A DNA stretch of 21,725 bases from a virus (lineage: Duplodnaviria; Heunggongvirae; Uroviricota; Caudoviricetes), in IMG/VR virus record IMGVR_UViG_3300035156_000038, positions 1 through 21,725 of that record. One strand, written 5' to 3'. The notes beneath the pieces are model-generated. The model was not told where the DNA came from. It saw only the letters and a program-made list of their open reading frames with translations, and did not search any database. Positions within the stretch are counted from its first letter, which is position 1. The number at the start of each line of letters is the position of its first letter. Of this stretch, positions 5,567 through 17,736 are shown piece by piece. Both the position numbers and the translations under genes were made by a program.

Positions 5567-5595
5567 ATCTTACCTTCGTCCCTAGCTAGCGTCAA
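5567..5595 (-). promoter_or_regulatory. sigma70-type promoter
   Basis: Minus strand TTGACG-17 bp-TAAGAT. Confidence 0.7.
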
Positions 5596-6158
5596 GTCTT
5601 AAAATAGTTTTTAACGAACCTGTCTGCTTTTTTCCACAGGGGCGGGTAAGCCCCGATAAGCCCGTGGTCGAGCAGATGACGTTTTTCACGCATGTACTTC
5701 ACGGCGAAGCCCGGATCGTGGTCGGTAATGTCAGCCGTGTTGTGTAGCAGATCGCACAGCTTGACCGTCTTGACGGACGAGCAGCAGCGGTCGATGCGTT
5801 GCACTTCCAGCGCCTTGCGTTCGGCACGGTTGAGGCCGGGGTAGCTGCGCTCTGTGAGGCCGTCCACCAGCAGGGCCACTTGTGGGCCGAAGTGGTGTTC
5901 GATTACGTCAAGGCTGTAGTTGTGCCAAGTCGTCGGCCACAGTTCCGGGTTGCCGACATCCTCTACAACATCGTGGAGCAAGGCCGCGTCAATCTCGGCG
6001 TTGTTGGCGTACGGGTAGTTCGCAATCAGAATTTCCGCCACAGCTTCCGGGTGCGTCCAGTAGGGATCACCTGTGTATTTGCGCTTCTGGTTGACGCTGT
6101 TGTGTGCCGCCACCATGAAGGCGTGTGCGGGGCGTTGTCGTAGTTGAATCAGGTTCAT
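5592..6158 (-). CDS. HD-domain protein, RelA/SpoT hydrolase (small alarmone hydrolase, Mesh1-like)
   Basis: AH..Q.RK..G.PY..HP..VA..L, AALLHDVVED, VALLVDGLT and VKLCDLLHN motifs typical of RSH hydrolase (HD_4) domains; no synthetase domain. Confidence 0.85.
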   Translation of the reverse strand: MNLIQLRQRPAHAFMVAAHNSVNQKRKYTGDPYWTHPEAVAEILIANYPYANNAEIDAALLHDVVEDVGNPELWPTTWHNYSLDVIEHHFGPQVALLVDGLTERSYPGLNRAERKALEVQRIDRCCSSVKTVKLCDLLHNTADITDHDPGFAVKYMREKRHLLDHGLIGAYPPLWKKADRFVKNYFKT

Positions 6159-6226: not shown

Positions 6227-6577
6227 TTAGTCGTCGCCTAGTGCCGTGCGTAGAACGGCTCTTGCGAACCGTATTCCGTGAGGTAAGGAATCCTCCGTCA
6301 TGTGCGTCATAAACAACGCCTCAATATCGCCGTTCGATAACGACTTGCCCCGGCGTTCGCGTACACGTGCAGCCAAGTCGTCAACCGTGCCATGCGTGGG
6401 CATCTTGTACTCCACACACAGGGCAACCAATGCGTGCCACTGAGGCGACGAACGGCGTGCGTCCAACACATCCCCTACCGTCAAGTCCCATCCGGGGAAG
6501 CCCAGAATGACGGTTTCGCGGGGTTTATCGGCGTAGCCCGTAACTTCTAACGGGAAGTCGGCCAACTTGCTTTTCAT
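6227..6577 (-). CDS. hypothetical protein (116 aa)
   Basis: ATGA coupling to the recombinase stop. Confidence 0.7.
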
Positions 6578-7278
6578 GCTGCTGTCTCCATGCGTTCAAC
6601 AAGGTTAATTACAGTTTGTGTTCCCCACGCTTTGCCGCGTGCGGTTTTGATGCCCATGCGGTTCAATTCGGCTGCCGTAGCCTTGAACGTGAGTCCTTGG
6701 CCGCGAAGGTTCATGACGATTGAGCCGATTTTCTCTGCAAATTCGTCTGCCTTCTCCGCGTTGCGTGCCGCACCCTTTGCACGGGCTTCCACAATCGTGT
6801 TCGGGTCTTTGTGCAGGGCGTAGCCCAGCGTGACGCCCTGCGCTTTCAGTTCGTCCAGAGCGGCTTTAGTGCGTTCCCCAATCAGGGTGCGCTCTTTCTC
6901 CGCAAAGGTTGCATAAATGTGCATCATCATTGGGTCAACGTCTTCGCCCAGAGCTACGGCGATGAATTTCACCCGCTTCATGAAGCCTGCTACGAATTCC
7001 ACATCACGTGAAAGACGGTCAAGCTTACTTACCACCAGCGTTGCACCAACCCGGCCAGCCTTGGCTACAGCGGCGTGCAGCACCGGTCGATCTTCAAGCC
7101 CCAGCTTGCCGCTAGCGCGTTCTTCGACGTATTCCAGCACTTCGTAGCCGTTGTACTCTGCAAACTGCTTCACGGCTGCACGTTGGGCTTCAATACCCAG
7201 CCTAAGCGCGTCTTCGCCCCCGGCGTTCTTCTTATCTTCGGTCGAGACACGCAGATAGGCTATCAATTTCTTGGTCAT
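6574..7278 (-). CDS. serine recombinase (resolvase/invertase family)
   Basis: Catalytic AYLRVST motif, SGK...[14 protein letters not shown], and a short C-terminal DNA-binding region ([16 protein letters not shown]...RGKAW). Confidence 0.92.
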
Positions 7279-8814: not shown

Positions 8815-9150
8815 ATGAACGAAGGTGTTGTGACGATGGTGGAAGCGCCCATCTTCGTTAAGAAGACTCATGAACTGGCGGGGTTACTGAAGCGCGTTAA
8901 GTATGGATCGGCCAAGGCCGTTGACATCCTGATTGACACGATGGAAGACAAGAATACCGAGCCGAAGCTAAAAGTAGCGTGTGCGCAATCGCTAATTGAG
9001 TACGAAGTAAAGATTACAGACCAGATTAACAAAGACCAACTAGTAAGACAGGTGGCGGAAATTAAGGCTAAGGGCCTATCTACTCCGCTACGCCCTGAAG
9101 ATAAGGCGCTATCGCCAACGGTGGACTTTAGCCGTATTCAGGAAGTCTGA
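8815..9150 (+). CDS. hypothetical protein, possible terminase small subunit
   Basis: AAAGGA RBS before ATG 8815; 111 aa, helical with a disordered C-tail. First gene of the unit that leads to terL. The TerS assignment is positional inference only. Confidence 0.5.
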   Translation: MNEGVVTMVEAPIFVKKTHELAGLLKRVKYGSAKAVDILIDTMEDKNTEPKLKVACAQSLIEYEVKITDQINKDQLVRQVAEIKAKGLSTPLRPEDKALSPTVDFSRIQEV

Positions 9151-9167
9151 TAGCTAGGTAGCAAGGC

Positions 9168-9196
9168 TTGACAAAACACGGATCGTCGCTTATACT
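9168..9196 (+). promoter_or_regulatory. sigma70-type promoter heading the tRNA array
   Basis: TTGACA-17 bp-TATACT. Confidence 0.8.
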
Positions 9197-9373
9197 GTGA
9201 CCACATGGAGATATTGGGGTATTTGATTCTCTTTCGAAAGGTAGGTGATCCTGTATTTTGTTTGGCTTCATGTAAAGTGTTCTCCTTGGGTCAGATGTGT
9301 GTGAAGCTGGTTACTTCATTGGGGTGGTTCCCGAGACACGACATCGCCGCAAACTGTAAGCGGCCAGAACATT

Positions 9374-9460
9374 GCTCCTTTCCCATAGTGGTTGATTGGA
9401 CTTGCCTTGTAAGCAAGCGGCGAAAGCCCAGCGTCCGTTCGAATCGGACAGGGAGCACCA
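9374..9460 (+). tRNA. tRNA-Thr(UGU) with a long variable arm
   Basis: Acceptor GCTCCTT/AGGGAGC, A73, CCA; anticodon arm CTTGC-CTTGTAA-GCAAG; variable arm GGC-GAAA-GCC; T arm GTCCG-TTCGAAT-CGGAC. Confidence 0.8.
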
Positions 9461-9462
9461 AA

Positions 9463-9539
9463 CCTTCTCAAGCTAATCAGGTTGAAAGCGACGGATTGAA
9501 AACCCGTAGAGCGTGGATCGTTACCACGGTGAAGGGCCA
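9463..9539 (+). tRNA. tRNA-Phe(GAA), atypical acceptor
   Basis: ACGGA-TTGAAAA-CCCGT anticodon arm; T arm CGTGG-ATCGTTA-CCACG; acceptor CCTTCTC/GTGAAGG; G73; CCA. Confidence 0.75.
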
Positions 9540-9592
9540 AACAACTGTGCATTGTAACCAGTGCTAAGCTGTTTGACAATTTAGAGGTAGGT

Positions 9593-9997
9593 ATGAAGTC
9601 GTGTAGCTCATGCCAAGTTGAGTATGAGCCGTACGGCCAGAGATGCAGCTTGTGTAAGGAATGTCGGCGTGCGTATGATAGACAGTACCACGCTAAGAGA
9701 AGCACTGCTGCAAAGCAGCGAAAGTTGGATGTGCAGCGAGCAGCCCGGATACGGAATTCCCAGTTTGTGTACGATTACTTTAAAAGTAACCCGTGCGTCG
9801 GATGTGGAGAAACGCGTATCCCATGCCTACAGTTTGACCACGTAGGAGATAAATCCCACACTGTATCCGATATGGTTAAAGGCTACTCATTAGCCAACAT
9901 CAAAGAAGAAATTAGTAAGTGCAGGGTATTGTGTGCTAACTGCCACGCTGTCAGAACAGCAGAGCAGTTCGGATGGTACTCCAACGTAGCTAAGTAA
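9593..9997 (+). CDS. free-standing HNH endonuclease
   Basis: N-terminal CxxC...CxxC; core CVGCG...LQFDH...EISKCRVLCANCH; GAGGT RBS. Confidence 0.85.
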   Translation: MKSCSSCQVEYEPYGQRCSLCKECRRAYDRQYHAKRSTAAKQRKLDVQRAARIRNSQFVYDYFKSNPCVGCGETRIPCLQFDHVGDKSHTVSDMVKGYSLANIKEEISKCRVLCANCHAVRTAEQFGWYSNVAK

Positions 9998-10003
9998 GAC
10001 AAT

Positions 10004-10090
10004 CTGTGTGTAGCCCCGTAATCAGGTAGCGGCCTCGTTTTGGAAACGAGTGGGAAACCCTTGGTGGATCGAAGCCACCCGCGCAGACCA
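10004..10090 (+). tRNA. tRNA-Pro(UGG) with an extra variable stem
   Basis: C1-G72, A73, CCA; CTCGT-TTTGGAA-ACGAG; variable GGG-AAA-CCC; T arm GGTGG-ATCGAAG-CCACC. Confidence 0.8.
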
Positions 10091-10110
10091 AGTATTTAAG
10101 TGAGAAAGAC

Positions 10111-10139
10111 TTGACAAAGATAGGAAGCTAGTGTATTAT
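10111..10139 (+). promoter_or_regulatory. sigma70-type promoter
   Basis: TTGACA-17 bp-TATTAT. Confidence 0.8.
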
Positions 10140-10163
10140 TCAAGTCTAGGCAGTAAAGAATAT

Positions 10164-10243
10164 GGGGATAGGGACTGCTAGAAGTGGTCATTCGCCTTGC
10201 ACGCGGAATATCAGCCGGGTTTGAATCCTCGGTATCTCCACCA
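10164..10243 (+). tRNA. tRNA-Ala(UGC)
   Basis: GGGGATA/TATCTCC with G3:U70; TTCGC-CTTGCAC-GCGGA; A73; CCA. Confidence 0.85.
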
Positions 10244-10251
10244 AGTTTTAC

Positions 10252-10328
10252 GGGCGAGCACCGGAGTGATCCGGCCTTCTTTTGAAGGTACAGCTAAGCA
10301 GTGGTTAGATACCGCTCCTTGTCCACCA
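10252..10328 (+). pseudogene. degenerate or atypical tRNA-like gene, anticodon undetermined
   Basis: Acceptor GGGCGAG/CTTGTCC + A + CCA; T-like arm AGTGG-TTAGATA-CCGCT; D-like arm CCGGA-GTGA-TCCGG; the anticodon arm gives no canonical 7-nt loop. Confidence 0.5.
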
Positions 10329-10454
10329 GAATCATCGCAGAAGCGGCGTGAGCTAATCTACACTCACTGAGGTCATTGTCCACCAAAAGTCAGAACGGAC
10401 GGTATTATTAACTAGGCAACATGCAGCCCCCGTAGGAAAGCATGTAAGAACAAA

Positions 10455-10528
10455 GCAGGTAATCATAAGGTGTGACGCAAGCCTTCCAAGCTTCGCTGAG
10501 TGGAGTTCGATTCTCCCTACCCGCTCCA
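10455..10528 (+). tRNA. tRNA-Gly(UCC)
   Basis: AAGC-CTTCCAA-GCTT; U73; CCA; T loop TTCGATT. Confidence 0.85.
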
Positions 10529-10534
10529 AACAGT

Positions 10535-10610
10535 ACACGTATGGCTGATCGGCTTAGGCCCCGGATTGCAAACCCGGTGTAGCTGGGTTCGATTCCCGGT
10601 ACGTGTTCCA
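10535..10610 (+). tRNA. tRNA-Cys(GCA)
   Basis: ACACGTA/TACGTGT; loop TTGCAAA; U73; CCA. Confidence 0.85.
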
Positions 10611-10713
10611 AGATAGGCACTTATGCCTTGCGCAAGCGGAAAATAAGCTGGGGCTAGCATCATCTAGCCTTGCCTTCGCCGGGAAGGGACTACAAATAAC
10701 CGGAACGAATATT

Positions 10714-10795
10714 GGGCGAGTGGCTTATGGAAACGGTACACCTACCTGCCTTAGAAGCAGGGCTTTTGCTGGTTCGAATCCAGTCTTGCCTACCA
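10714..10795 (+). tRNA. tRNA-Leu(UAG) with a short variable region
   Basis: CCTGC-CTTAGAA-GCAGG; variable region only GCTTTT; T arm GCTGG-TTCGAAT-CCAGT; A73; CCA; long D loop. Confidence 0.8.
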
Positions 10796-10801
10796 AGTTA
10801 C

Positions 10802-10890
10802 GCTGTGTTGATAGAATTCGGTTACTTCATACTTTGACTTTTAATCAAACCCATTGCCGAAAGGCAGTTACCGATTCGCCAGTTACCAGC
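10802..10890 (+). ncRNA. Y-RNA-like RNA 1 (Yrl-like, Ro60-associated)
   Basis: Terminal GCTG/CAGC stem; GAATTCGGTTAC pairs with GTTACCGATTC; shared TTACTTC motif; internal TTGA-CTTTTAA-TCAA and TGCC-GAAA-GGCA hairpins; upstream of the Ro60 gene. Confidence 0.75.
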
Positions 10891-10898
10891 AAATTTAC

Positions 10899-10982
10899 GG
10901 CTTGCCGATATAAACCGATACTTCTTCGCTAATAGCCGATAACACCGAGGGGTGCGGCGTTTCTGTTTAGCCAGTTGCAGCC
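10899..10982 (+). ncRNA. Y-RNA-like RNA 2
   Basis: 5' GGCTTGCCGAT and 3' GCCAGTTGCAGCC resemble the Ro-binding stem of Y RNAs (GGCUGGUCCGA/UUGACUAGCC); TAAAC/GTTTA stem; ATACTTC motif; CACC-GAGG-GGTG hairpin. Confidence 0.65.
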
Positions 10983-10990
10983 AGTTTTAC

Positions 10991-11095
10991 GCAGTGTTGA
11001 TTGAAACAGTTACTTCTTACCTTTGCTAAAGAGAGTTCCGTTCGAATCGGATTAATCCACGGTGGACGACCATTTCTGTTTCGCTTGTTACCTGC
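10991..11095 (+). ncRNA. Y-RNA-like RNA 3 (YrlA-like, with T arm)
   Basis: GCAG/CTGC ends; GAAACAG/CTGTTTC stem; TTACTTC motif; canonical T arm TCCG-TTCGAAT-CGGA at 11037-11051. Confidence 0.8.
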
Positions 11096-11113
11096 TTATA
11101 TTTGTAGTAGAAT

Positions 11114-11169
11114 GCCCCTACCTCTGCCAGCTAGCCCAGAGCTAGTGAGCAAGTAGGGGCTTTTGTTTT
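11114..11169 (+). terminator. terminator-like hairpin between the Y RNAs and Ro60
   Basis: GCCCCTAC/GTAGGGGC stem with a nested CTAGC/GCTAG hairpin, followed by TTTTGTTTT. Confidence 0.6.
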
Positions 11170-11209
11170 AACCACGCCCGTTAGGGTAAACCAACCAAGG
11201 AGATTGTAA

Positions 11210-12520
11210 ATGGCATCGACTAACAAAAAAGTAGCACAACCGCGTACCGCAACCACTCACGCTGGCCTAGCTGTTAAGCAGCTTGGGGCAAACGATAAGC
11301 TGGTGCGTCTGACGCTGGCACACATGCTGTTCGAAGGGCAGTTCTACGTGAACGGCCAAACATCGGCAACCCTGTTGCAATCAGCCGTGAAAGCCGCTGA
11401 CCCACGTTTCGTAGCTACGCTGGCAGAAACCGCCCGTACTGATTACAAACTGCGTCACGTGCCGCTCTACCTGATTCGTGAACTAATCCGCAATGGTGAC
11501 GCTACCGCTGCCGACATCGACAACGTGATTCGTCGCCCGGATGAAATGGGTGAACTGCTTTCGCTGTATAACAAGCCGAAGCGTCAACCGCTGTCGCATC
11601 AACTGAAGAAAGGTCTGCGTCAAGCATTTGGCCGCTTCAACGAATACTCGCTAGCCAAGTTCGACAAGAACTCCGCTGGTTACAGCATCCGTGATGTGAT
11701 GTTCATGGTACGCCCAAAGCCTGCCACGCCAGAACAGGAAGCCCTGTACAAGCGTATCGCAGACGGCACAATGGCAACCCCGGATACGTGGGAAACCGAA
11801 CTGTCGGCTGGTGCGGATAAGAAGGAAACGTTCGAACGCCTGATGGGCGAAAAGAAGTTGGGCGCTCTGGCGTTCCTGCGCAACCTGCGTAACATGGTGC
11901 AAGCTGGTATCTCCACTTCGGTGATTCGTGCTTACGCTGAAACGCTGGATGTCAAGAACGTCCTGCCATTCCGCTACATCGCCGCTGCACGTGTTGTACC
12001 GCAGTTCGAAGATATGCTGGAAGCTATGATGTTCCGTTCGCTGCAAGGCGTGGAGAAGATCAAGGGCAAGACGGTGTTGATGGTGGACGTTTCGGGTTCG
12101 ATGTTCGGTACGAAGGTATCGGCCAAGTCCGACCTTGACCGCTTCGATGCAGCAGCGGCCTTGGCTGTTCTGTGCCGTGAGATTTGCGAAGAAGTGGAAA
12201 TCTACTCCTTCAGCAATCAATCGAAGCTGGTAGCGCCTCGCCGTGGCTTTGCTCTGGTGGAAGCTATCCGTAACAGCCAGTCGCACGGCGGTACTGCGAT
12301 GGGACGTTCGTACGCTGAAATCTCGGCTAAGACTTCGTTTGACCGCATCATCTGCTTCACCGATGAGCAATCGAGCGACCGCCCAGCCAAGCCGAAGGGT
12401 AAAGGTTACATCATCAACGTTGCTAGCTACCAAAATGGCATCAACGAAGACGCATGGACTACCGTTACCGGGTTCTCGGAAGCGACTTTGGAATACATTA
12501 AGTTTGTCGAAAAGCTGTAA
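11210..12520 (+). CDS. rsr: Ro60 / TROVE-domain RNA-binding protein (TROVE + vWA)
   Basis: TROVE-like N-terminal region (GQFY, LRHVPLYL.REL.R, IRRPDEMGELL, LRNLRNM, VLPFRY) and vWA MIDAS motif VDVSGSM, GGT, FTDEQS; AAGGAG RBS. Confidence 0.93.
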   Translation: MASTNKKVAQPRTATTHAGLAVKQLGANDKLVRLTLAHMLFEGQFYVNGQTSATLLQSAVKAADPRFVATLAETARTDYKLRHVPLYLIRELIRNGDATAADIDNVIRRPDEMGELLSLYNKPKRQPLSHQLKKGLRQAFGRFNEYSLAKFDKNSAGYSIRDVMFMVRPKPATPEQEALYKRIADGTMATPDTWETELSAGADKKETFERLMGEKKLGALAFLRNLRNMVQAGISTSVIRAYAETLDVKNVLPFRYIAAARVVPQFEDMLEAMMFRSLQGVEKIKGKTVLMVDVSGSMFGTKVSAKSDLDRFDAAAALAVLCREICEEVEIYSFSNQSKLVAPRRGFALVEAIRNSQSHGGTAMGRSYAEISAKTSFDRIICFTDEQSSDRPAKPKGKGYIINVASYQNGINEDAWTTVTGFSEATLEYIKFVEKL

Positions 12521-12526
12521 AGCCTC

Positions 12527-12555
12527 TTGACAAGCAAGCTAGCTAGGTGTATAAT
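12527..12555 (+). promoter_or_regulatory. consensus sigma70 promoter
   Basis: TTGACA-17 bp-TATAAT, a perfect match. Confidence 0.9.
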
Positions 12556-12587
12556 CACTCCACTTAGCTAGCAAAGACCTTACAAAA

Positions 12588-12679
12588 GGTCTTAACTATA
12601 ACTCTGGTGTTAGAATCGGTTACTTCTTCAACTGGTGAAAACAAAGCTCCGATTCGCCTTTTCCGGGTTATAGTTAAGA
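12588..12679 (+). ncRNA. Y-RNA-like RNA 4, downstream of Ro60
   Basis: 13-bp terminal stem TCTTAACTATAAC/GTTATAGTTAAGA; GAATCGG/CCGATTC stem and TTACTTC motif, near-identical to those of RNA 1. Confidence 0.7.
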
Positions 12680-12685
12680 TTTTAT

Positions 12686-12768
12686 GTGCGTGTGGCTTAG
12701 GTAAATTGGCACAGCCACCCGGCTCAAAACCGGGGCTTTTGCTGGTTCGAATCCAGTCACGCATACCA
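12686..12768 (+). tRNA. tRNA-Leu(CAA) with a short variable region
   Basis: CCCGG-CTCAAAA-CCGGG; variable GCTTTT; T arm identical to Leu(UAG); A73; CCA. Confidence 0.8.
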
Positions 12769-12776
12769 AGAACAAT

Positions 12777-12862
12777 TGCGAGGTAGAGAGTAGGGGTAGC
12801 TCGTCAGGCTCATAACCTGAACCTTAATTGGCTCGGCGGTTCGATTCCGCCCTTCGCAACCA
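12777..12862 (+). tRNA. tRNA-Met(CAU), initiator-like, with an expanded variable region
   Basis: TCAGG-CTCATAA-CCTGA and GGTAGCTCG D region resemble fMet tRNA; U1-A72; 14-nt variable region; CCA. Confidence 0.8.
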
Positions 12863-12867
12863 GAATT

Positions 12868-13257
12868 ATGCATACTAAAACTAAAGGAGACATCGCAGAG
12901 GCGATGGTAGCCGCACGGCTCCTACAAACAGGTGCGGCTGTACTAAAGCCGATGGGCGACAACCTGCGATACGATCTTGTAATTGACCGCGACGGGAAGT
13001 TCTACCGGGTTCAGTGCAAGATGGGTAAGTTGAAAGCTGGTAGTGTTCATTTCAGCACTTGTAGTAGTACCGCTAAGGAAAGCTACGAAGGGCAGATTGA
13101 ATACTTCGGCGTGTACTGCCCAGATAATGACGAATCCTACCTAATCCCGATTGAGGATTGCAAGGTAGGCCGTCAAAAGAGTTTGCGAGTGCAGGAAGCT
13201 AAGAACGGCCAAACAGCGGGTGTCACTTTAGCAGGGAAGTACAAACTGGGTCTATAA
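12868..13257 (+). CDS. PD-(D/E)XK endonuclease (PDDEXK_5 / I-Ssp6803I-like)
   Basis: KGDIAE, RYDLVID, RVQCK, Y..QIEYFGVY and YLIP motifs. The last codons overlap the 5' end of tRNA-Lys. Confidence 0.85.
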   Translation: MHTKTKGDIAEAMVAARLLQTGAAVLKPMGDNLRYDLVIDRDGKFYRVQCKMGKLKAGSVHFSTCSSTAKESYEGQIEYFGVYCPDNDESYLIPIEDCKVGRQKSLRVQEAKNGQTAGVTLAGKYKLGL

Positions 13258-13323
13258 CTTAACTGGTTAAAGTAGGTGGCTTTTAACCATCAAATCGGGG
13301 TTCAAGTCCCTGTGGACTCACCA
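13248..13323 (+). tRNA. tRNA-Lys(UUU)
   Basis: GGTGG-CTTTTAA-CCATC; acceptor GGGTCTA/TGGACTC; CCA. Confidence 0.9.
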
Positions 13324-13332
13324 AGATTCAAT

Positions 13333-13411
13333 TCCGCAGAACCCGAGCATGGCGCATGGGCGTGACTGTTAATCACTGACTAGGCTGGATCGTTACCAGC
13401 GTGCGGAGCCA
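13333..13411 (+). tRNA. tRNA-Asn(GUU)
   Basis: GTGA-CTGTTAA-TCAC; G73; CCA. Confidence 0.85.
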
Positions 13412-13418
13412 GAACAAT

Positions 13419-13494
13419 ATTGCGTTAGTATAAAGGTCAGTACGGGGGACTTTCAATCCCTAGATGTTCGGTTCAAGTCCGACACGCAATACCA
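13419..13494 (+). tRNA. tRNA-Glu(UUC)
   Basis: ATTGCGT/ACGCAAT; GGGGA-CTTTCAA-TCCCT; CCA. Confidence 0.85.
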
Positions 13495-13502
13495 TTACAA
13501 TT

Positions 13503-13632
13503 TATTTACGCATACGTTGGTTCCTAGTACGGGGGTTCGAATCCCAATGGTAACGGAAGTGGAGCCAAGCTACCGCAGCTTAATTACCTGCGAAATGCGC
13601 CACGTAGCGAGTGAGCGGCGTATGCGTAAATA
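13503..13632 (+). ncRNA. unassigned structured RNA with a T-loop
   Basis: Perfect 14-bp terminal stem TATTTACGCATACG/CGTATGCGTAAATA; TTGGTTCC/GGAGCCAA helix enclosing GGG-TTCGAAT-CCC; CGCAG/CTGCG hairpin. Confidence 0.6.
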
Positions 13633-13636
13633 TATT

Positions 13637-13711
13637 GGTCGATTAGCTCAGCGGTAGAGCGGAGTCTTTACACGGCTTTGGTCGGCGGTTCAATCCCGTC
13701 ATCGACTACCA
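13637..13711 (+). tRNA. tRNA-Val(UAC)
   Basis: GGTCGAT/ATCGACT; loop TTTACAC; CCA. Confidence 0.9.
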
Positions 13712-13721
13712 AGATTACAAC

Positions 13722-13814
13722 GCATACAAGTTAGATATTGGTTAAGCTAACCGGGACTGTAACCCCCGAGAGCCGCTAGACGGCGTGGACGTTCGATTCG
13801 TTCTGTATGCACCA
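13722..13814 (+). tRNA. tRNA-Tyr(GUA)
   Basis: GCATACA/TGTATGC; loop CTGTAAC; long variable arm GCCG-CTAGA-CGGC; CCA. Confidence 0.85.
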
Positions 13815-13820
13815 AACAAA

Positions 13821-13896
13821 GCATCATTAGCTCAATTGGGAGAGCGTCTGCCTGTCGAGCAGAGGGTAAGCGGATCGAAACCGCTATGGTGCGCCA
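13821..13896 (+). tRNA. tRNA-Asp(GUC)
   Basis: TCTGC-CTGTCGA-GCAGA; G73; CCA. Confidence 0.9.
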
Positions 13897-13902
13897 AACA
13901 TT

Positions 13903-13976
13903 ATCACGCCCGGTGGATTCCCGGCTCAGCGGCTACGAACCGCAGATACAAGGTTCGACTCCTTGGCGTGGTTCCA
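13903..13976 (+). tRNA. tRNA-Arg(ACG)
   Basis: GCGG-CTACGAA-CCGC; T arm CAAGG-TTCGACT-CCTTG; atypical D arm; CCA. Confidence 0.75.
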
Positions 13977-13984
13977 GATACAGT

Positions 13985-14058
13985 GGTGAAGATAGTGTAA
14001 TGGGAGCATAACTGTCTGTGAAACAGTTGGAACGGGATCGAAACCCAGCTTCACACCA
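13985..14058 (+). tRNA. tRNA-His(GUG)
   Basis: AACTGT-CTGTGAA-ACAGTT; encoded G-1; weak T stem; CCA. Confidence 0.75.
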
Positions 14059-14160
14059 AGAATAGGTTGGCCGTACATTGGTCTTAATTGGCTAAGAACG
14101 GCGTGATCGTACTAATGTACGTGGCTTCGCTGGGGTGGAAAGATAAAACCCTAGCCCGAT

Positions 14161-14234
14161 AGTGGGTTAGCTCAAAGGCAGAGCACACGCTTGATAAGCG
14201 TTAGACGTTGGATCGTTACCATCACTCACTACCA
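14161..14234 (+). tRNA. tRNA-Ile(GAU)
   Basis: AGTGGGT/ACTCACT; ACGC-TTGATAA-GCGT; CCA. Confidence 0.9.
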
Positions 14235-14242
14235 AGAACAAT

Positions 14243-14318
14243 TGCAGCGTAGCTCAACTGGTAGAGCAGCAGACTTTGACTCTGTTGGTTGCAGGTTCAA
14301 ATCCTGCCGCTGTTGCCA
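14243..14318 (+). tRNA. tRNA-Gln(UUG)
   Basis: GCAGA-CTTTGAC-TCTGT; unpaired 1-72; G73; CCA. Confidence 0.85.
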
Positions 14319-14646
14319 GTAATACAGCAAGTACCGGGGGCATACACCCGGACGACCGCAGGATTCCACTAGGCTGTGCGCAGCCTATTGTAGACATTAC
14401 AGGTTGCCAAGCTAGATTGCTATGGGGGTGATGCCCCAGTCTAGCCCAGAAGTCCTAGTAGCTGTAGCTAGGCGCATACACGGAGAAGCCCGGATTGGGC
14501 CTCTTATGCCCGGTATGGCAAGAATGTGGGTGAGCAAACCCGGCTCTGACAGCGCGTAAACATCGCCCTGCTGGCTCGCTTTTGCAAGCCGGTTAAGGGA
14601 AGGTTTCGAACAACCGGATTCACTCACACACAGATTATAACACAAT

Positions 14647-16026: not shown

Positions 16027-17736
16027 ATGGCTCTAATGCGCTATCAGCCGTATGGATTGGTTAGACTGGGGGGCAATCGTGGCCTTCAACGCGGATTGGT
16101 AGCGTATGCCCGACTATCTGGCCGCAACACCATTGACCCTGTAGACGGGAAGCCTTGGGCGGTGAATGTAGGGGCGACCCCGCTAACATTTGACGGTACT
16201 CCAAGGGGCATGGGGATGAAGATGAAGGGGGAAACCCCCTCGTTCGTGTCAAGACTTGCCCCCTCCACGATTTCCCCCGGAACGTCACAGCCTGCAACAA
16301 TTCGCTTCAGGCTGTTCTTCCGCAATATGCCAATTCAAGGCTACTCTCTTATGTCTTGGGGAGATAGTCCTCAAGATGGCAACCCGCGACTGTACATTCG
16401 TGTTAACGGGGGAGGTCAAATCAACCTATACCGTGGGGGAGGATACAACTACAACTTTCAGTGCGTGGCAGGTAAGGAGTATATTATCACTTATGCCTGT
16501 GACGGTACGCTGTTCACTCTCTATGTCAATGGAGAGGTTGTAGGCGTTGCAGGGGGATCATGGGGTGGAAATACTTCCGCGTTCTACGTTGGAAGTGGGT
16601 ACGATGGATATAACTATTCCGCTGACTACATCATTTCAGACTTCGCAGTGTGGAACCGTGGGCTAACCAGTGCGGAAGTGGTGAGCGATTACCAGAACCC
16701 TTGGCAAATGTTCGCAACAGACCACGAAGAAGAAGAACCTATTGTAGTCGTAACGGCGGGATACGCTGATACGGCGGGTAGCTCAAGCGGAGCTTCCACA
16801 GTAACAGGCGTGGCGAGAGCCGTAGCACAAGCTTACGGGAGCAGTGCTGCACTGGCAGCGGCAGCAGCGGGAGCCCAAGCGGTAGCCCGTACAAGCGGAA
16901 GCTCCGTAGCGGCCTCTAGCACAGGCGCAACAGCGTACAGCGTATGGAACGTCAACGGAGCGTCACAAGGCTCTGCAACGGCCTCTGTGCCAGCCTTTAG
17001 CGTAGCCAACACTGCTGCGTCTGCTACAGGCGCATCATCGGCGGGTGGTACGGTAGTTTCGGTTGCGTGTGCTAACGGTAATTCGTCAGCATCGGCTACC
17101 GTAACAGGCAACGCAGCTTGCGTATGGCAGATTGTAGGTAACGCGTCGGGCGGGGCAACCGTCAACGCAGTATCCGCGTTTGGTAATAACGAACCGGGCA
17201 ACACGGTAGTCTACTGGGATGTCCAAGGCGCAAGCTACGGTAGTGCTTCAGCGTCGGCTACAGCGAGGGCAGTAACTAACTCGGCTGGTTCTTCTGGTGG
17301 TAACTCATTGGTGACGGCAAGCGCCCAAGCCCTGACAAGCGCAATTGGATCGGCCCTAGCCTCGGCTACGGCAGCAGGCACAGGCGCTATGGTTATCACT
17401 ACCACGGGTGCAGCAGTTGCGGCCAGTTCAGCAGCAGGTAATGCTAATGCGGTGGCTAGCACAAGCGGTAACACCGTTGGTGGAAGTTCTACACAAGCAG
17501 TCTGTCTGACCATCTACGAAAGCGTAGCAAACAGCCTAAGCACGAGTATTGTGCAGGCAGTTACACAATCTGTAGTTGAAGCCATTGGTAATGCTAACGG
17601 CTTTGCCAAGGTTTCGGGAACAACTGAGGGTGGTGTACATTACACGGCTTCCGGCGACAAGTTTAGCGTAACTGTCACGTTCTCCCCGTACAGAATCACG
17701 GTGGAAAGCAACCCATATACCGTAACATTTAATTAA
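16027..17736 (+). CDS. LamG/ConA-like domain protein with a 20-aa repeat stalk; putative fibre or adhesin
   Basis: The N-terminal region has LamG-like motifs (ITYACDG..FTLYVNG, FYVGSG, ISDFAVWNRGLTSAEV...YQNPWQMF). An Ala/Ser/Gly/Thr-rich repeat region follows. Confidence 0.7.
   Translation: MALMRYQPYGLVRLGGNRGLQRGLVAYARLSGRNTIDPVDGKPWAVNVGATPLTFDGTPRGMGMKMKGETPSFVSRLAPSTISPGTSQPATIRFRLFFRNMPIQGYSLMSWGDSPQDGNPRLYIRVNGGGQINLYRGGGYNYNFQCVAGKEYIITYACDGTLFTLYVNGEVVGVAGGSWGGNTSAFYVGSGYDGYNYSADYIISDFAVWNRGLTSAEVVSDYQNPWQMFATDHEEEEPIVVVTAGYADTAGSSSGASTVTGVARAVAQAYGSSAALAAAAAGAQAVARTSGSSVAASSTGATAYSVWNVNGASQGSATASVPAFSVANTAASATGASSAGGTVVSVACANGNSSASATVTGNAACVWQIVGNASGGATVNAVSAFGNNEPGNTVVYWDVQGASYGSASASATARAVTNSAGSSGGNSLVTASAQALTSAIGSALASATAAGTGAMVITTTGAAVAASSAAGNANAVASTSGNTVGGSSTQAVCLTIYESVANSLSTSIVQAVTQSVVEAIGNANGFAKVSGTTEGGVHYTASGDKFSVTVTFSPYRITVESNPYTVTFN
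16759..17628 (+). repeat. 2 x 7 degenerate 20-aa (60-nt) repeats
   Basis: Blocks 16759-17178 and 17209-17628 are each exactly 7 x 20 codons, with Gly (occasionally Ala) at position 7, separated by the linker FGNNEPGNTV. Confidence 0.8.

What the first reader, a model, noticed from the sequence alone, without database searches (positions are those of the whole stretch)
10802..12679. Phage Ro60 flanked by four paralogous Y-RNA-like genes inside the tRNA array
Seen: three tandem ~85-105-nt RNAs upstream and one downstream of a full TROVE+vWA gene. All share one scaffold: terminal stem, then a TGTTGAT/CCGAT-like segment, a second stem (GAATTCGG, TAAAC, GAAACAG, GAATCGG), the (T/A)TACTTC motif, a variable hairpin module, the complementary strand, and a GCCAGTT/GCTTGTT-like 3' segment. 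Stem sequences differ yet stay complementary, which is covariation visible within one genome. Established: bacterial Ro60 (Rsr) binds Y RNAs; YrlA mimics tRNA; in Deinococcus the Y RNA tethers Rsr to PNPase; in Salmonella rsr-yrlBA-rtcBA responds to tRNA cleavage; some phages carry Ro60/YrlA. Inference: a four-member diversified set with different effector modules on one Ro-binding scaffold would be a programmable RNP for tRNA protection, repair or decay during infection. No RtcB is in this window.
Basis: partly seen in the sequence, partly recalled or inferred. Interest (0 to 1): 0.88.

Follow-up and report, generated by a model that had tools for sequence, protein, structure and literature searches.

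The report
Phage Ro60 with four Y-like RNAs
A phage gene for the ring-shaped RNA-binding protein Ro60 is flanked by four small RNA genes that share one conserved "handle" but carry different bodies; this is a real, unannotated branch of the known Ro60/Y-RNA partnership, recurring in many phages and soil bacteria.

Summary
ORF 11210-12520 is a compact (436 aa) Ro60: it has a TROVE hit, an intact MIDAS motif and a predicted fold matching solved Ro60 structures. Four RNAs lie on its strand: W1 10802-10890, W2 10899-10982, W3 10991-11095 and W4 core 12599-12670. They share a handle: terminal stem, invariant bulged U, two covarying base pairs, an internal loop with a relaxed CGAA motif, a second stem, then UUACUUC.

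A covariance model of the handle finds exactly these four in the 85.7-kb genome. It finds 49 more beside Ro60 in 15 related viral contigs and 84 upstream of Ro60 in 80 bacterial loci, always on the Ro60 strand. Compensatory changes occur at every modelled pair.

Rfam's YrlA model misses all four. Sister phages carry tRNA-like RNAs with the same handle that hit YrlA below threshold, which links the families.

The bodies fall into conserved classes:
- W1: an anticodon-arm-like hairpin plus a GAAA hairpin.
- W3: a T arm without a D arm.
- W4: short, with a long terminal helix.
- W2: probably a decayed copy of W3.

This phage lacks the full tRNA-like YrlA.

The kind is known (YrlA/YrlB; Thermus phage phiLo Yrl1/2), so this is a new variant. 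The scan's own index holds many similar notes on other DNA. The function (adaptor or gate for host PNPase, or counter-defence) is inferred, not shown.

The parts
10111..10139 (+). Sigma-70-type promoter-like site (TTGACA-17-TATTAT). It is the likely start of the transcript carrying tRNA-Cys, tRNA-Leu(UAG) and W1-W3.
   Evidence: 11 of 12 consensus matches. Its function is inferred.
10714..10795 (+). tRNA-Leu(UAG), ending 6 nt before W1. It shares an identical 26-nt stretch (10760-10785) with the tRNA-Leu(CAA)-like gene after W4.
10802..10890 (+). W1, a class A Y-like RNA. Handle: S1 10802-05/10887-90, bulged U 10806, 2 bp 10807-08/10885-86, S2 10814-21/10870-77, UUACUUC 10822-28. Body: an anticodon-arm-like hairpin 10833-49 (5 bp, loop CUUUUAA) and a GAAA-tetraloop hairpin 10856-65.
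   Evidence: CM R1 54.3 bits, E 9e-11. Orthologues with the same body are in L001, L002, L005, L006 and L010.
10899..10982 (+). W2, the weakest member. Its handle motif is GCCGAU, stem 2 has one C.U mismatch, and its body is a bulged hairpin with no T loop. It is probably a truncated duplicate of W3.
   Evidence: CM R1 32.7 bits, E 1e-5; alignment with class B RNAs.
10991..11095 (+). W3, a class B Y-like RNA. It has the handle, a small V hairpin, a T arm (11037-11051, loop UUCGAAU) and a short hairpin, but no D arm.
   Evidence: CM R1 58.1 bits. It aligns with L001:2701-2805 and other class B RNAs. There is no Rfam YrlA hit.
11108..11169 (+). Terminator-like two-tier GC-rich hairpin followed by a U tract, between W3 and the Ro60 gene. 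A weak promoter-like site (11085-11113) would start transcripts inside its 5' arm.
   Evidence: (-29.7 kcal/mol, z -3.8). Its role is inferred.
11210..12520 (+). Ro60 (TROVE + vWA) protein, 436 aa. An AAGGAG ribosome-binding site lies 7 nt before the ATG. The MIDAS motif DVSGS is intact.
   Evidence: Pfam TROVE E 1e-11. phmmer to Thermus phage phiLo Ro60 (9KOP/9L5Y) E 7e-19 over residues 42-432. AlphaFold2 pLDDT 82.8; the top 13 Foldseek hits are all Ro60 structures, TM 0.59-0.75.
12527..12555 (+). Perfect sigma-70 consensus promoter (TTGACA-17-TATAAT), 7 nt after the Ro60 stop codon. It would drive W4 and the downstream tRNAs.
   Evidence: 12 of 12 matches. Its function is inferred.
12586..12684 (+). 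W4, a class D Y-like RNA (CM core 12599-12670). Handle: bulged U 12605, GG/CC pairs, S2 12613-19/12649-55. A mostly single-stranded ~29-nt loop contains UGGUGAAAACAAA. The whole sits on a 16-20-bp terminal helix.
   Evidence: CM R1 68.9 bits, E 3e-14. Fold in context -37.9 kcal/mol, z -3.9. Orthologues in L001, L003, L005, L006, L010, L012 and L014.
12686..12766 (+). tRNA-Leu(CAA)-like gene closing the cassette. ARAGORN does not call it.
   Evidence: Rfam tRNA 25.4 bits, below the gathering score; sequence read.

Best explanation
The cassette encodes a phage Ro60 ribonucleoprotein system: one compact Ro60 protein and four Y-like RNAs.

Each RNA carries the same handle: terminal stem, bulged U, two base pairs, an internal loop with a relaxed CGAA motif, a second stem, and UUACUUC. 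By analogy with solved and tested Ro60-Y RNA complexes, this handle is the Ro60-binding site.

The bodies displayed on the handle differ and fall into classes conserved across phages:
- an anticodon-arm-like hairpin plus a GNRA hairpin (W1);
- a T arm without a D arm (W3, and its decayed copy W2);
- a largely single-stranded loop on a long helix (W4).

The RNAs are made as parts of the phage's tRNA operons. W1-W3 lie behind tRNA-Leu and before a terminator. W4 lies behind its own consensus promoter and before more tRNAs. They are cut out by host RNA-processing enzymes.

Once bound, the RNAs would act as adaptors and gates. They would tether Ro60 to host factors (PNPase is the best precedent) and control access to the Ro60 cavity, reshaping RNA decay or quality control, or blunting a host defence, during infection.

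Shown here: the protein's identity and fold, the RNA family, its structure by covariation, its exclusive linkage to Ro60, and the body classes. Inferred: Ro60 binding, processing, partners and biological role.
For: Protein:
- Pfam TROVE hit.
- E 7e-19 to phiLo Ro60, which binds Yrl1 and Yrl2 (PMC12135203).
- Predicted fold matches 9KOP, 1YVP, 2I91 and 2NVO.
- In the alignment, K133/K134, R161 and K170 line up with phiLo K141/K142, R169 and R178, whose mutation weakens RNA binding. The numbering offset of +8 is inferred.

RNA family:
- Exactly four CM hits in the genome, all beside Ro60.
- All 21 hits in five complete related viral genomes (~500 kb) lie beside Ro60.
- 49 of 49 hits in viral loci and 84 of 84 in bacterial loci are on the Ro60 strand. 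All 84 bacterial hits are upstream of the gene.

Structure:
- 93-98% of cells paired; every modelled pair has compensatory changes.
- The two pairs next to the bulged U were not required when candidates were picked, and they carry about 1 bit of mutual information each.

Link to known Y RNAs:
- RNAs with the same handle plus T, acceptor-like and D arms hit Rfam YrlA at 34-56 bits.
- The handle loop (R-N-Y-G-W-W, G invariant) is a relaxed form of the published GNCGAA/CGAA motif (PMC4201824; PMC12135203).

Functional precedent:
- phiLo Ro60, Yrl RNAs and host PNPase form a complex that attenuates PNPase (PMC12135203).
- A Ro60-like protein of phage Bas63, encoded just upstream of its tRNA genes, counters the ppl defence system (PMC11482910).
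Against: - There is no direct evidence that the RNAs accumulate or bind Ro60. Read data were not available for this window.
- Rfam's YrlA model does not detect any of the four.
- The strict GNCGAA motif is met by none: W2 has 5 of 6, W1 and W3 have 4 of 6, W4 has 3 of 6.
- This phage lacks the tRNA-like YrlA that Chen et al. 2014 found in every species they examined.
- Single-sequence folding energies are unremarkable.
- In Ralstonia phage RsoM2USA the handle RNAs lie 5 kb and 30 kb from the Ro60 gene, so adjacency is not universal.
- The candidates used to seed the model were chosen partly for stem complementarity, which inflates pairing statistics for S1 and S2.
Confidence: 0.75

Rival explanations
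1. Decoy reading: the bodies are mimics of tRNA parts (anticodon arm in W1, T arm in W3). They would soak up or report host tRNA-targeting nucleases or other tRNA-binding defence proteins, with Ro60 stabilising or disposing of the products.
For: - W1 has a 5-bp stem with the loop CUUUUAA, the same 7 nt as this phage's tRNA-Lys(UUU) anticodon loop.
- Across the family, 15 hairpins after UUAC have 7-nt loops of anticodon-loop form (Y-U-NNN-R-N), against 1.9 expected and a maximum of 7 in 500 shuffles.
- tRNA finders read some of these hairpins as anticodon arms.
- A Ro60-like phage protein counters a defence system (PMC11482910).
Against: - The 'anticodon' differs between orthologous class A RNAs (UUU, CUU, UAC, UCC; L001's loop does not fit the form), so no single nuclease target is conserved.
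- The stems differ from those of the real tRNAs.
- The hairpin may simply be a relic of the dimeric-tRNA origin proposed for YrlA (bioRxiv 10.1101/312249).
- No anticodon nuclease is known for the unidentified host.
Confidence: 0.12
2. Cis-acting reading: the handles are Ro60-binding or processing sites within the tRNA/Ro60 operon transcripts (autoregulation, processing guides). They would not be stable trans-acting RNAs.
For: - The spacing is tight: 6-8 nt between tRNA-Leu, W1, W2 and W3.
- A terminator lies directly between W3 and the Ro60 gene.
- The 16-20-bp helix under W4 resembles a double-strand-specific RNase site.
Against: - Same-handle RNAs in sister loci are YrlA-like. Chen et al. 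2014 showed YrlA and YrlB to be stable, Rsr-bound RNAs in Salmonella Typhimurium and Mycobacterium smegmatis.
- The bodies are conserved as classes across phages whose Ro60 proteins are only 45-68% identical. A mere protein-binding site would not need that.
- In RsoM2USA the RNAs lie far from the gene.
Confidence: 0.07
3. Different-partner reading: the handle is bound by some protein other than Ro60 (a host factor or another phage protein). The linkage to Ro60 would then reflect shared function only.
For: - No binding data exist for this subfamily.
- The handle departs from the canonical CGAA motif.
- Only about half of the phiLo RNA-contact residues are conserved in the alignment.
Against: - Ro60 is the only gene consistently next to the RNAs across phages and bacteria of several phyla.
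- The stem-bulge-stem layout and the loop motif match those of Ro60-bound RNAs (PMC4201824, PMC12135203).
- Single substitutions in the phiLo CGAA motif lower affinity only 3-4-fold (PMC12135203), so drift of the motif is tolerable.
Confidence: 0.04
4. Debris reading: the elements are decaying tRNA or repeat remnants of the array, with no function.
For: - W2 looks degenerate.
- W3 has lost the D arm relative to tRNA-like members.
- Individual folding energies are not exceptional.
Against: - Every handle pair shows compensatory substitutions.
- Loop nucleotides are invariant across 49 copies.
- Hits occur only beside Ro60 and only on its strand.
Confidence: 0.02

Closest known systems
Bacterial and phage YrlA/YrlB Y RNAs with Rsr (Chen et al. 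2014, PMC4201824; Rfam RF02553; structure of the YrlA tRNA-like domain, bioRxiv 10.1101/312249)
   Same: - Encoded next to Ro60 and on its strand.
- A 5'/3' stem, with an internal loop carrying a GNCGAA-like motif near the 5' end.
- A conserved UA just after the second stem.
- More than one Y RNA per locus, cut from one precursor.
- Some bodies carry a T arm (as in M. smegmatis YrlB).
- Sister phages have same-handle RNAs that hit RF02553.
   Different: - None of the four window RNAs is detected by RF02553, and none has a D arm.
- The motif is relaxed (GUUGAU, GCCGAU, GGUGUU).
- There are four copies here and up to six in relatives, rather than two.
- At least two body classes (the anticodon-arm-like plus GNRA hairpin type, and the short single-stranded type) are not tRNA-like domains.
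Thermus phage phiLo Ro60 with Yrl1 and Yrl2 (PMC12135203; PDB 9KOP, 9L5Y)
   Same: - A phage-encoded Ro60 that is the best sequence and fold match to this protein.
- Y-like RNAs directly upstream of the gene.
- A stem-bulge-stem handle with a CGAA-type motif.
   Different: - 23% identity; this protein is about 65 residues shorter.
- Two RNAs versus four.
- phiLo's RNAs were not described as sitting in a tRNA array or as carrying tRNA-part bodies.
- Binding and PNPase recruitment are shown for phiLo and only inferred here.
Deinococcus radiodurans Rsr-Yrn1-PNPase (RYPER) machine
   Same: The working model is the same: the Y RNA handle binds Ro60 and the other end tethers an exoribonuclease.
   Different: - No PNPase gene is encoded next to this cassette, so any PNPase partner would have to be the host's; the rest of the genome was not searched for one and the host is unknown.
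- The Yrn1 body is organised differently.
Metazoan Y RNAs (human Y1, Y3, Y4, Y5)
   Same: Several paralogous RNAs share one Ro60-binding helix that contains a bulged nucleotide, and they differ in their loop modules.
   Different: - There is no sequence homology detectable by Rfam Y_RNA.
- The bulge here is a U next to two covarying pairs.
- The genes are inside tRNA operons rather than Pol III units.
Ro60-like gp130 of E. coli phage Bas63 (PMC11482910)
   Same: A Ro60-shaped phage protein encoded directly upstream of the phage's tRNA genes. The authors suspected that some of the annotated 'tRNAs' are Y RNAs.
   Different: - gp130 is known only by structural similarity, and its RNAs are undefined.
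- An anti-defence role (against ppl) was shown there and is untested here.

Membership tests
Ro60 / Rsr (TROVE) protein | TROVE domain recognised by sequence | tested here: met
   Pfam PF05731, E 9.8e-12, 45 bits against a cut-off of 23; only residues 188-237 are matched. phmmer to phiLo Ro60 gives E 7e-19 over residues 42-432.
Ro60 / Rsr (TROVE) protein | C-terminal vWA domain with a MIDAS motif (DxSxS) | tested here: met
   vWA_Ro60 and VWA_2 hits are below their cut-offs. DVSGS aligns with the phiLo motif. D293, S295 and S297 are invariant in 15 homologues.
Ro60 / Rsr (TROVE) protein | Helical-repeat (HEAT-type) TROVE domain plus vWA overall fold | tested here: met
   AlphaFold2 model, pLDDT 82.8. 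The 13 best Foldseek PDB hits are all Ro60 structures, E 7e-18 to 5e-10, TM 0.59-0.75. Ring closure was not inspected directly; the match is to the overall fold.
Ro60 / Rsr (TROVE) protein | Binds Y RNA or misfolded RNA | not testable with these tools
   Needs gel-shift or RIP experiments.
Rfam YrlA (RF02553) | Score at or above the family's gathering threshold (69 bits) | tested here: not met
   No YrlA match in 9000-14500 even at E<=10. Same-handle tRNA-like RNAs in related loci reach only 34-56 bits.
Rfam YrlA (RF02553) | tRNA-like domain with conserved T and D arms | tested here: not met
   W3 has a T arm (UCCG-UUCGAAU-CGGA) but no D arm. W1, W2 and W4 have neither.
Rfam YrlA (RF02553) | GNCGAA(N0-1)G motif near the 5' end | tested here: inconclusive
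   W2 has GCCGAU (5/6), W1 and W3 have GUUGAU (4/6), W4 has GGUGUU (3/6). The family consensus R-N-Y-G-W-W has an invariant G, and some relatives have exact GGCGAAG.
Rfam YrlA (RF02553) | Encoded within about 4 kb of Ro60 on the same strand | tested here: met
   All four lie within 410 nt of the ORF on the + strand.
Y RNA in the broad sense (Ro60-bound stem-bulge-stem RNA; Yrl of phiLo) | Paired 5' and 3' ends, an internal loop or bulge with a conserved motif, then a second stem | tested here: met
   Covariation supports both stems and the two pairs beside the invariant bulged U.
Y RNA in the broad sense (Ro60-bound stem-bulge-stem RNA; Yrl of phiLo) | Accumulates as a discrete small RNA and co-purifies with Ro60 | not testable with these tools

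The most novel reading that the evidence does not exclude
The phage carries a kit of Ro60 adaptor RNAs, each displaying a different isolated piece of a tRNA: an anticodon arm with a variable 'anticodon', or a T arm. A short single-stranded tether is also present. Together with Ro60 they would work as decoys or sensors that neutralise host defences acting on tRNAs or through RNA decay. The variable anticodon-like triplets would reflect an arms race with anticodon nucleases.
Probability: 0.12. Interest if true: 0.85.

Novelty: new variant of a known kind. Interest (0 to 1): 0.55.

Why it matters
- Ro60 and Y RNAs are conserved from bacteria to humans, yet what bacterial and phage versions do is still largely open.
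- Chen et al. 2014 noted that non-tRNA-like Y RNAs "eluded bioinformatic discovery". The handle model built here finds them directly.
- The typical locus holds several Y RNAs (up to six), with recurring body classes, in phages and in many Acidobacteriota.
- None of these RNAs is annotated, and some are mislabelled as tRNAs in GenBank records.
- Cultured carriers make the binding partners of each body class experimentally accessible: Xanthomonas phage 10KY502B has five copies in a 43-kb genome, and Ralstonia phage RsoM2USA also carries them.
- The same carriers allow a test of a possible anti-defence role.

Tried and rejected
- **Rfam scans.** At gathering thresholds and at E<=10, Rfam found only tRNAs in the region. 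There was no Y_RNA, YrlA or other family.
- **Single-sequence folding.** Folding W1-W4 gave z-scores of -1.9 to +0.3, so stability alone does not support the RNAs.
- **Similarity to deposited phages.** Megablast of 10500-12900 against GenBank phages gave no match. tblastn of the 569-aa ORF 16027-17736 also gave no match, and it has no Pfam hit. The phage has no close cultured relative, and I could not name a host.
- **My first descriptor scan** produced many false positives at low scores. It was replaced by the covariance model.
- **W3 as a degraded class C (full YrlA) RNA.** I considered this but rejected it, because W3 aligns better with class B RNAs such as L001:2701-2805.
- **Caulobacter phage CcrColossus**, reported to have a YrlA, gave only a 15-bit hit and none at E<=0.01 genome-wide. 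The model covers a subfamily of handles, not all Y RNAs.
- **Dictyostelium Class I RNAs.** Notes in the scan's index link such handles to these RNAs. Rfam gave no such hit here, and I did not pursue it.
- **Unavailable sources.** The reviews PMC10870794 and PMC6047535 and the supplements of Chen et al. 2014 were not held.
- **Complex prediction.** None was attempted, because the tool takes no RNA and the host partner is unknown.
Full report
**What is there.**

The window is the first 21.7 kb of an 85.7-kb viral record that CheckV estimates as 94% complete. GC content is 51.7%. It carries a terminase large subunit and a Mu-type portal gene, and all of the genome's tRNA genes (13 by ARAGORN plus two more tRNA-like genes).

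ORF 11210-12520 (+) encodes a 436-aa protein.
- It has a Pfam TROVE hit (E 1e-11) and weak Ro60-vWA hits.
- It matches the solved Ro60 of Thermus phage phiLo with E 7e-19 over residues 42-432, and it has an intact DVSGS MIDAS motif.
- An AlphaFold2 model built on 15 homologues has pLDDT 82.8. Its 13 best PDB matches are all Ro60 structures: phiLo, Xenopus, human and Deinococcus.

It is therefore a genuine but compact Ro60.

**The four RNAs.**

My coordinates are W1 10802-10890, W2 10899-10982, W3 10991-11095 and W4 12586-12684 (core 12599-12670).

All four share this layout, read 5' to 3':
- terminal stem S1;
- a bulged U;
- two base pairs that pair with the last two bases of the 3' loop (GU/AC in W1 and W3, GC/GC in W2, GG/CC in W4);
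- a short 5' loop (UGAU, CGAU or UGUU);
- stem S2;
- UUACUUC (AUACUUC in W2);
- a variable body;
- the 3' strand of S2;
- a loop ending in UU;
- the 3' strand of S1.

**Is it more than chance?**

A sequence-only search for the 5' half of the motif already picked out the three upstream RNAs, plus similar elements beside Ro60 homologues in IMG/VR contigs. Each of these had downstream complements to both stems.

I aligned 14 short members from the window and seven related loci and built covariance model R1 from them. Results:
- With filters off, the window gives 68.9, 58.1, 54.3 and 32.7 bits for the four RNAs. The next best hit scores 9.6 bits.
- The rest of the genome has no hit.
- In 15 related viral loci there are 49 hits, all on the Ro60 strand.
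- In five complete related viral genomes (~500 kb in all), all 21 hits lie beside Ro60.
- In 80 bacterial loci with a relative of this Ro60 (mostly Acidobacteriota, with a few from other phyla) there are 84 hits. All are on the Ro60 strand and all are upstream of the gene.

Covariation is strong:
- 98.5% of cells are paired in the seed alignment, and 93.3% in the 49-sequence alignment.
- All 15 modelled pairs show changes on both sides.
- Only about 40% of cells pair when the partner is slid by 1-3 columns.

Because my first candidate list required S1 and S2 to be complementary, the fairest evidence is the two pairs next to the bulged U, which were not required. They show GC:30/AU:18 and GC:30/UA:14/AU:3/CG:1, with about 1 bit of mutual information each.

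Invariant positions in 49 of 49 copies are the bulged U, the loop G, the second U of UUACUUC and one U of the 3' loop.

**Relation to known Y RNAs.**

- Rfam contains YrlA (RF02553, gathering score 69 bits). It does not match the window even at E<=10.
- Related loci contain RNAs with the same handle whose bodies have a T arm, an acceptor-like hairpin and a D arm. These hit YrlA at 34-56 bits, E 7e-12 to 7e-4, and none reaches the gathering score.
- The handle loop consensus R-N-Y-G-W-W is a relaxed form of the GNCGAA(N0-1)G motif of Chen et al. 2014 (PMC4201824) and of the CGAA motif used to find Yrl1 and Yrl2 in phiLo (PMC12135203). Some relatives carry exact GGCGAAG.
- The UA of UUACUUC probably corresponds to the conserved YUAY/UA that those authors place at the start of the V loop. 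This is an inference.
- In phiLo, single substitutions in CGAA lower affinity only 3-4-fold (PMC12135203), so a drifted motif is compatible with binding.
- In the alignment, K133/K134, R161 and K170 of this protein line up with phiLo K141/K142, R169 and R178, while R137 and K193 are not conserved. This assumes the deposited chain is numbered 8 higher than in the paper, which I inferred from the RxxxKK pattern.

**Bodies.**

Comparison across loci gives four recurring classes.
- **Class A** (W1; also L001, L002, L005, L006, L010). A 4-5-bp hairpin with a 7-nt loop (weaker, with a 6-nt loop, in L010), followed by a GNRA-tetraloop hairpin.
- **Class B** (W3; L001, L005, L006, L014). A V region, a T arm and a further hairpin, with no D arm.
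- **Class C** (L001, L005, L006, L008, L009, L014, L015, Xanthomonas phage 10KY502B, Microcystis phage Mvi-JY20). The full YrlA-like arrangement. It is absent from this window, although the nearest relative L001 (Ro60 68% identical) has one directly before its Ro60 gene.
- **Class D** (W4; found in most loci and the best-scoring class). A short RNA whose loop contains UGGUGAAAACAAA-like sequence.

W2 aligns best as a shortened copy of W3 that has lost the T loop. It has the lowest score and a mismatch in S2.

The 'four different effector modules' are therefore better described as three conserved classes plus one probable decaying duplicate.

**Transcription and processing (inferred).**

- Strong consensus promoters precede the array (for example 10111-10139).
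- A perfect TTGACA-17-TATAAT sits 7 nt after the Ro60 stop codon, in front of W4.
- tRNA-Leu(UAG), W1, W2 and W3 are separated by only 6-8 nt. They are followed by a stable hairpin with a U tract.
- A weak promoter-like site at 11085-11113 would start transcription inside the 5' arm of that hairpin. This would let Ro60 mRNA escape termination.
- W4 sits on a 16-20-bp helix. Similar extended helices flank class D RNAs in six other loci. This is a plausible RNase III substrate.

**Function.**

Nothing here shows function directly. The precedents are:
- Rsr-Y RNA-PNPase in Deinococcus and Salmonella (PMC4201824).
- phiLo Ro60 with Yrl1/2 and host PNPase, which attenuates PNPase (PMC12135203).
- A Ro60-like protein of phage Bas63 that counters the ppl defence system and lies directly upstream of the phage's tRNA genes (PMC11482910).

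The genome has no RtcB. It does encode an RNA ligase with an N-terminal OB fold far from the cassette.

My best reading is a Ro60 RNP in which each RNA is an adaptor or gate. The choice of partner for each class is unknown.

**Anticodon-arm-like hairpins.**

Another note on this window (e1-5372806) proposed anticodon-loop mimicry. Comparative data partly support the observation.
- Among the 55 of 58 family members that carry the UUAC anchor, 15 hairpins just after UUAC have 7-nt loops of the form Y-U-NNN-R-N. Shuffles give 1.9 on average and at most 7 in 500.
- In several class C RNAs the hairpin is followed by a variable-loop-like AGGUC or UGGUC and then the T arm, as in a real tRNA.
- ARAGORN and a GenBank annotation read three such RNAs as tRNAs.

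This fits the dimeric-tRNA origin model for YrlA (bioRxiv 10.1101/312249). It leaves a decoy role possible, but the central triplet is not conserved between orthologues.

**Novelty and score.**

- Phage Ro60 genes with adjacent Y-like RNAs are published: 22 phages in Chen et al. 2014, and phiLo in 2025. The kind is known.
- New relative to the papers I could search:
  - a handle-defined subfamily that Rfam does not detect;
  - arrays of up to six copies;
  - recurring non-tRNA-like body classes;
  - a phage that lacks the tRNA-like member;
  - wide occurrence in Acidobacteriota.
- The scan's own index lists 569 notes matching Ro60/Y-RNA/phage search terms in at least 509 genomes; the eight shown all describe Ro60-like proteins beside Y-like or handle RNAs. 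So this window is one more instance of a theme the scan has met before on other DNA.
- I rate it a new variant of a known kind, with moderate interest.

Noticed in passing
window 12686-12766 (+) and 10760-10785 / 12733-12758: A tRNA-Leu(CAA)-like gene that ARAGORN misses (Rfam tRNA 25.4 bits). It shares an identical 26-nt stretch (variable region plus T arm) with tRNA-Leu(UAG) at 10714-10795. The Y-RNA/Ro60 cassette is therefore bracketed by direct repeats inside two paralogous tRNA genes.
   Followed up: partly
window 10833-10849; L005:5113-5201; L006:5099-5185; L014:2809-2942; L022:2825-2954 and others: Hairpins right after the UUAC motif often have 4-5-bp stems and 7-nt loops of anticodon-loop form (CUUUUAA, CUCUUAA, CUUACAC, CUUGUAA and others): 15 seen against 1.9 expected. 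ARAGORN and a GenBank record call three such RNAs tRNAs: L006 2845-2912 'Ile(tat)', L022 2607-2676 'Glu(ctc)', and the annotated tRNA-Thr of Xanthomonas phage 10KY502B.
   Followed up: partly
window 13503-13632 (+): A 130-nt structured element between tRNA-Glu and tRNA-Val, with a ~17-bp closing helix and a GGGGG-UUCGAAU-CCC T-arm-like hairpin (-49.6 kcal/mol, z -3.4). It has no R1 handle and no Rfam family.
   Followed up: partly
window 12586-12684; L002:4587-4675, L004:4463-4549, L005:5027-5117, L006:4886-4971, L014:4393-4481: Class D RNAs sit on 16-20-bp perfect helices. In several loci the 3' strand of that helix overlaps the 5' terminal-stem strand of the next Y-like RNA, giving mutually exclusive pairings that covary between loci. 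This may be a processing switch or an RNase III site.
   Followed up: no
G000:C1 about 73929-75104 (-), i.e. L026:2429-3604: A 391-aa RNA ligase (PHA02142 OB-fold domain plus PF09414 RNA_ligase), far from the cassette. The genome has no RtcB.
   Followed up: partly
window 12868-13257 (+): A PD-(D/E)XK endonuclease ORF (PF11645, E 6e-36) lies between tRNA-Met and tRNA-Lys inside the tRNA array. It may be a homing-type nuclease.
   Followed up: no
L027-L106 (bacterial contigs, mostly Acidobacteriota): Many soil Acidobacteriota chromosomes, and a few bacteria from other phyla, carry a relative of this Ro60 (44-49% identical over nearly its whole length). One to three handle RNAs lie upstream: 84 hits, all on the gene's strand. 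None reaches Rfam's YrlA gathering score in the loci tested.
   Followed up: partly
Ralstonia phage RsoM2USA MG752970.1: 49860-50070 and 75201-75506 (-): This jumbo phage has four handle RNAs in two pairs, about 5 kb and 30 kb from its Ro60 gene (43612-45078). Adjacency to Ro60 is therefore not universal.
   Followed up: no
window 16027-17736 (+): A 569-aa ORF just upstream of the terminase gene has no Pfam family and no tblastn match in 50,697 GenBank phage records.
   Followed up: no
window 5592-6158 (-) and 6574-7278 (-): A stand-alone HD-domain protein (PF13328, the RelA/SpoT-type hydrolase family) and a serine recombinase (Resolvase plus Recombinase domains) lie upstream of the tRNA array.
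   Followed up: no
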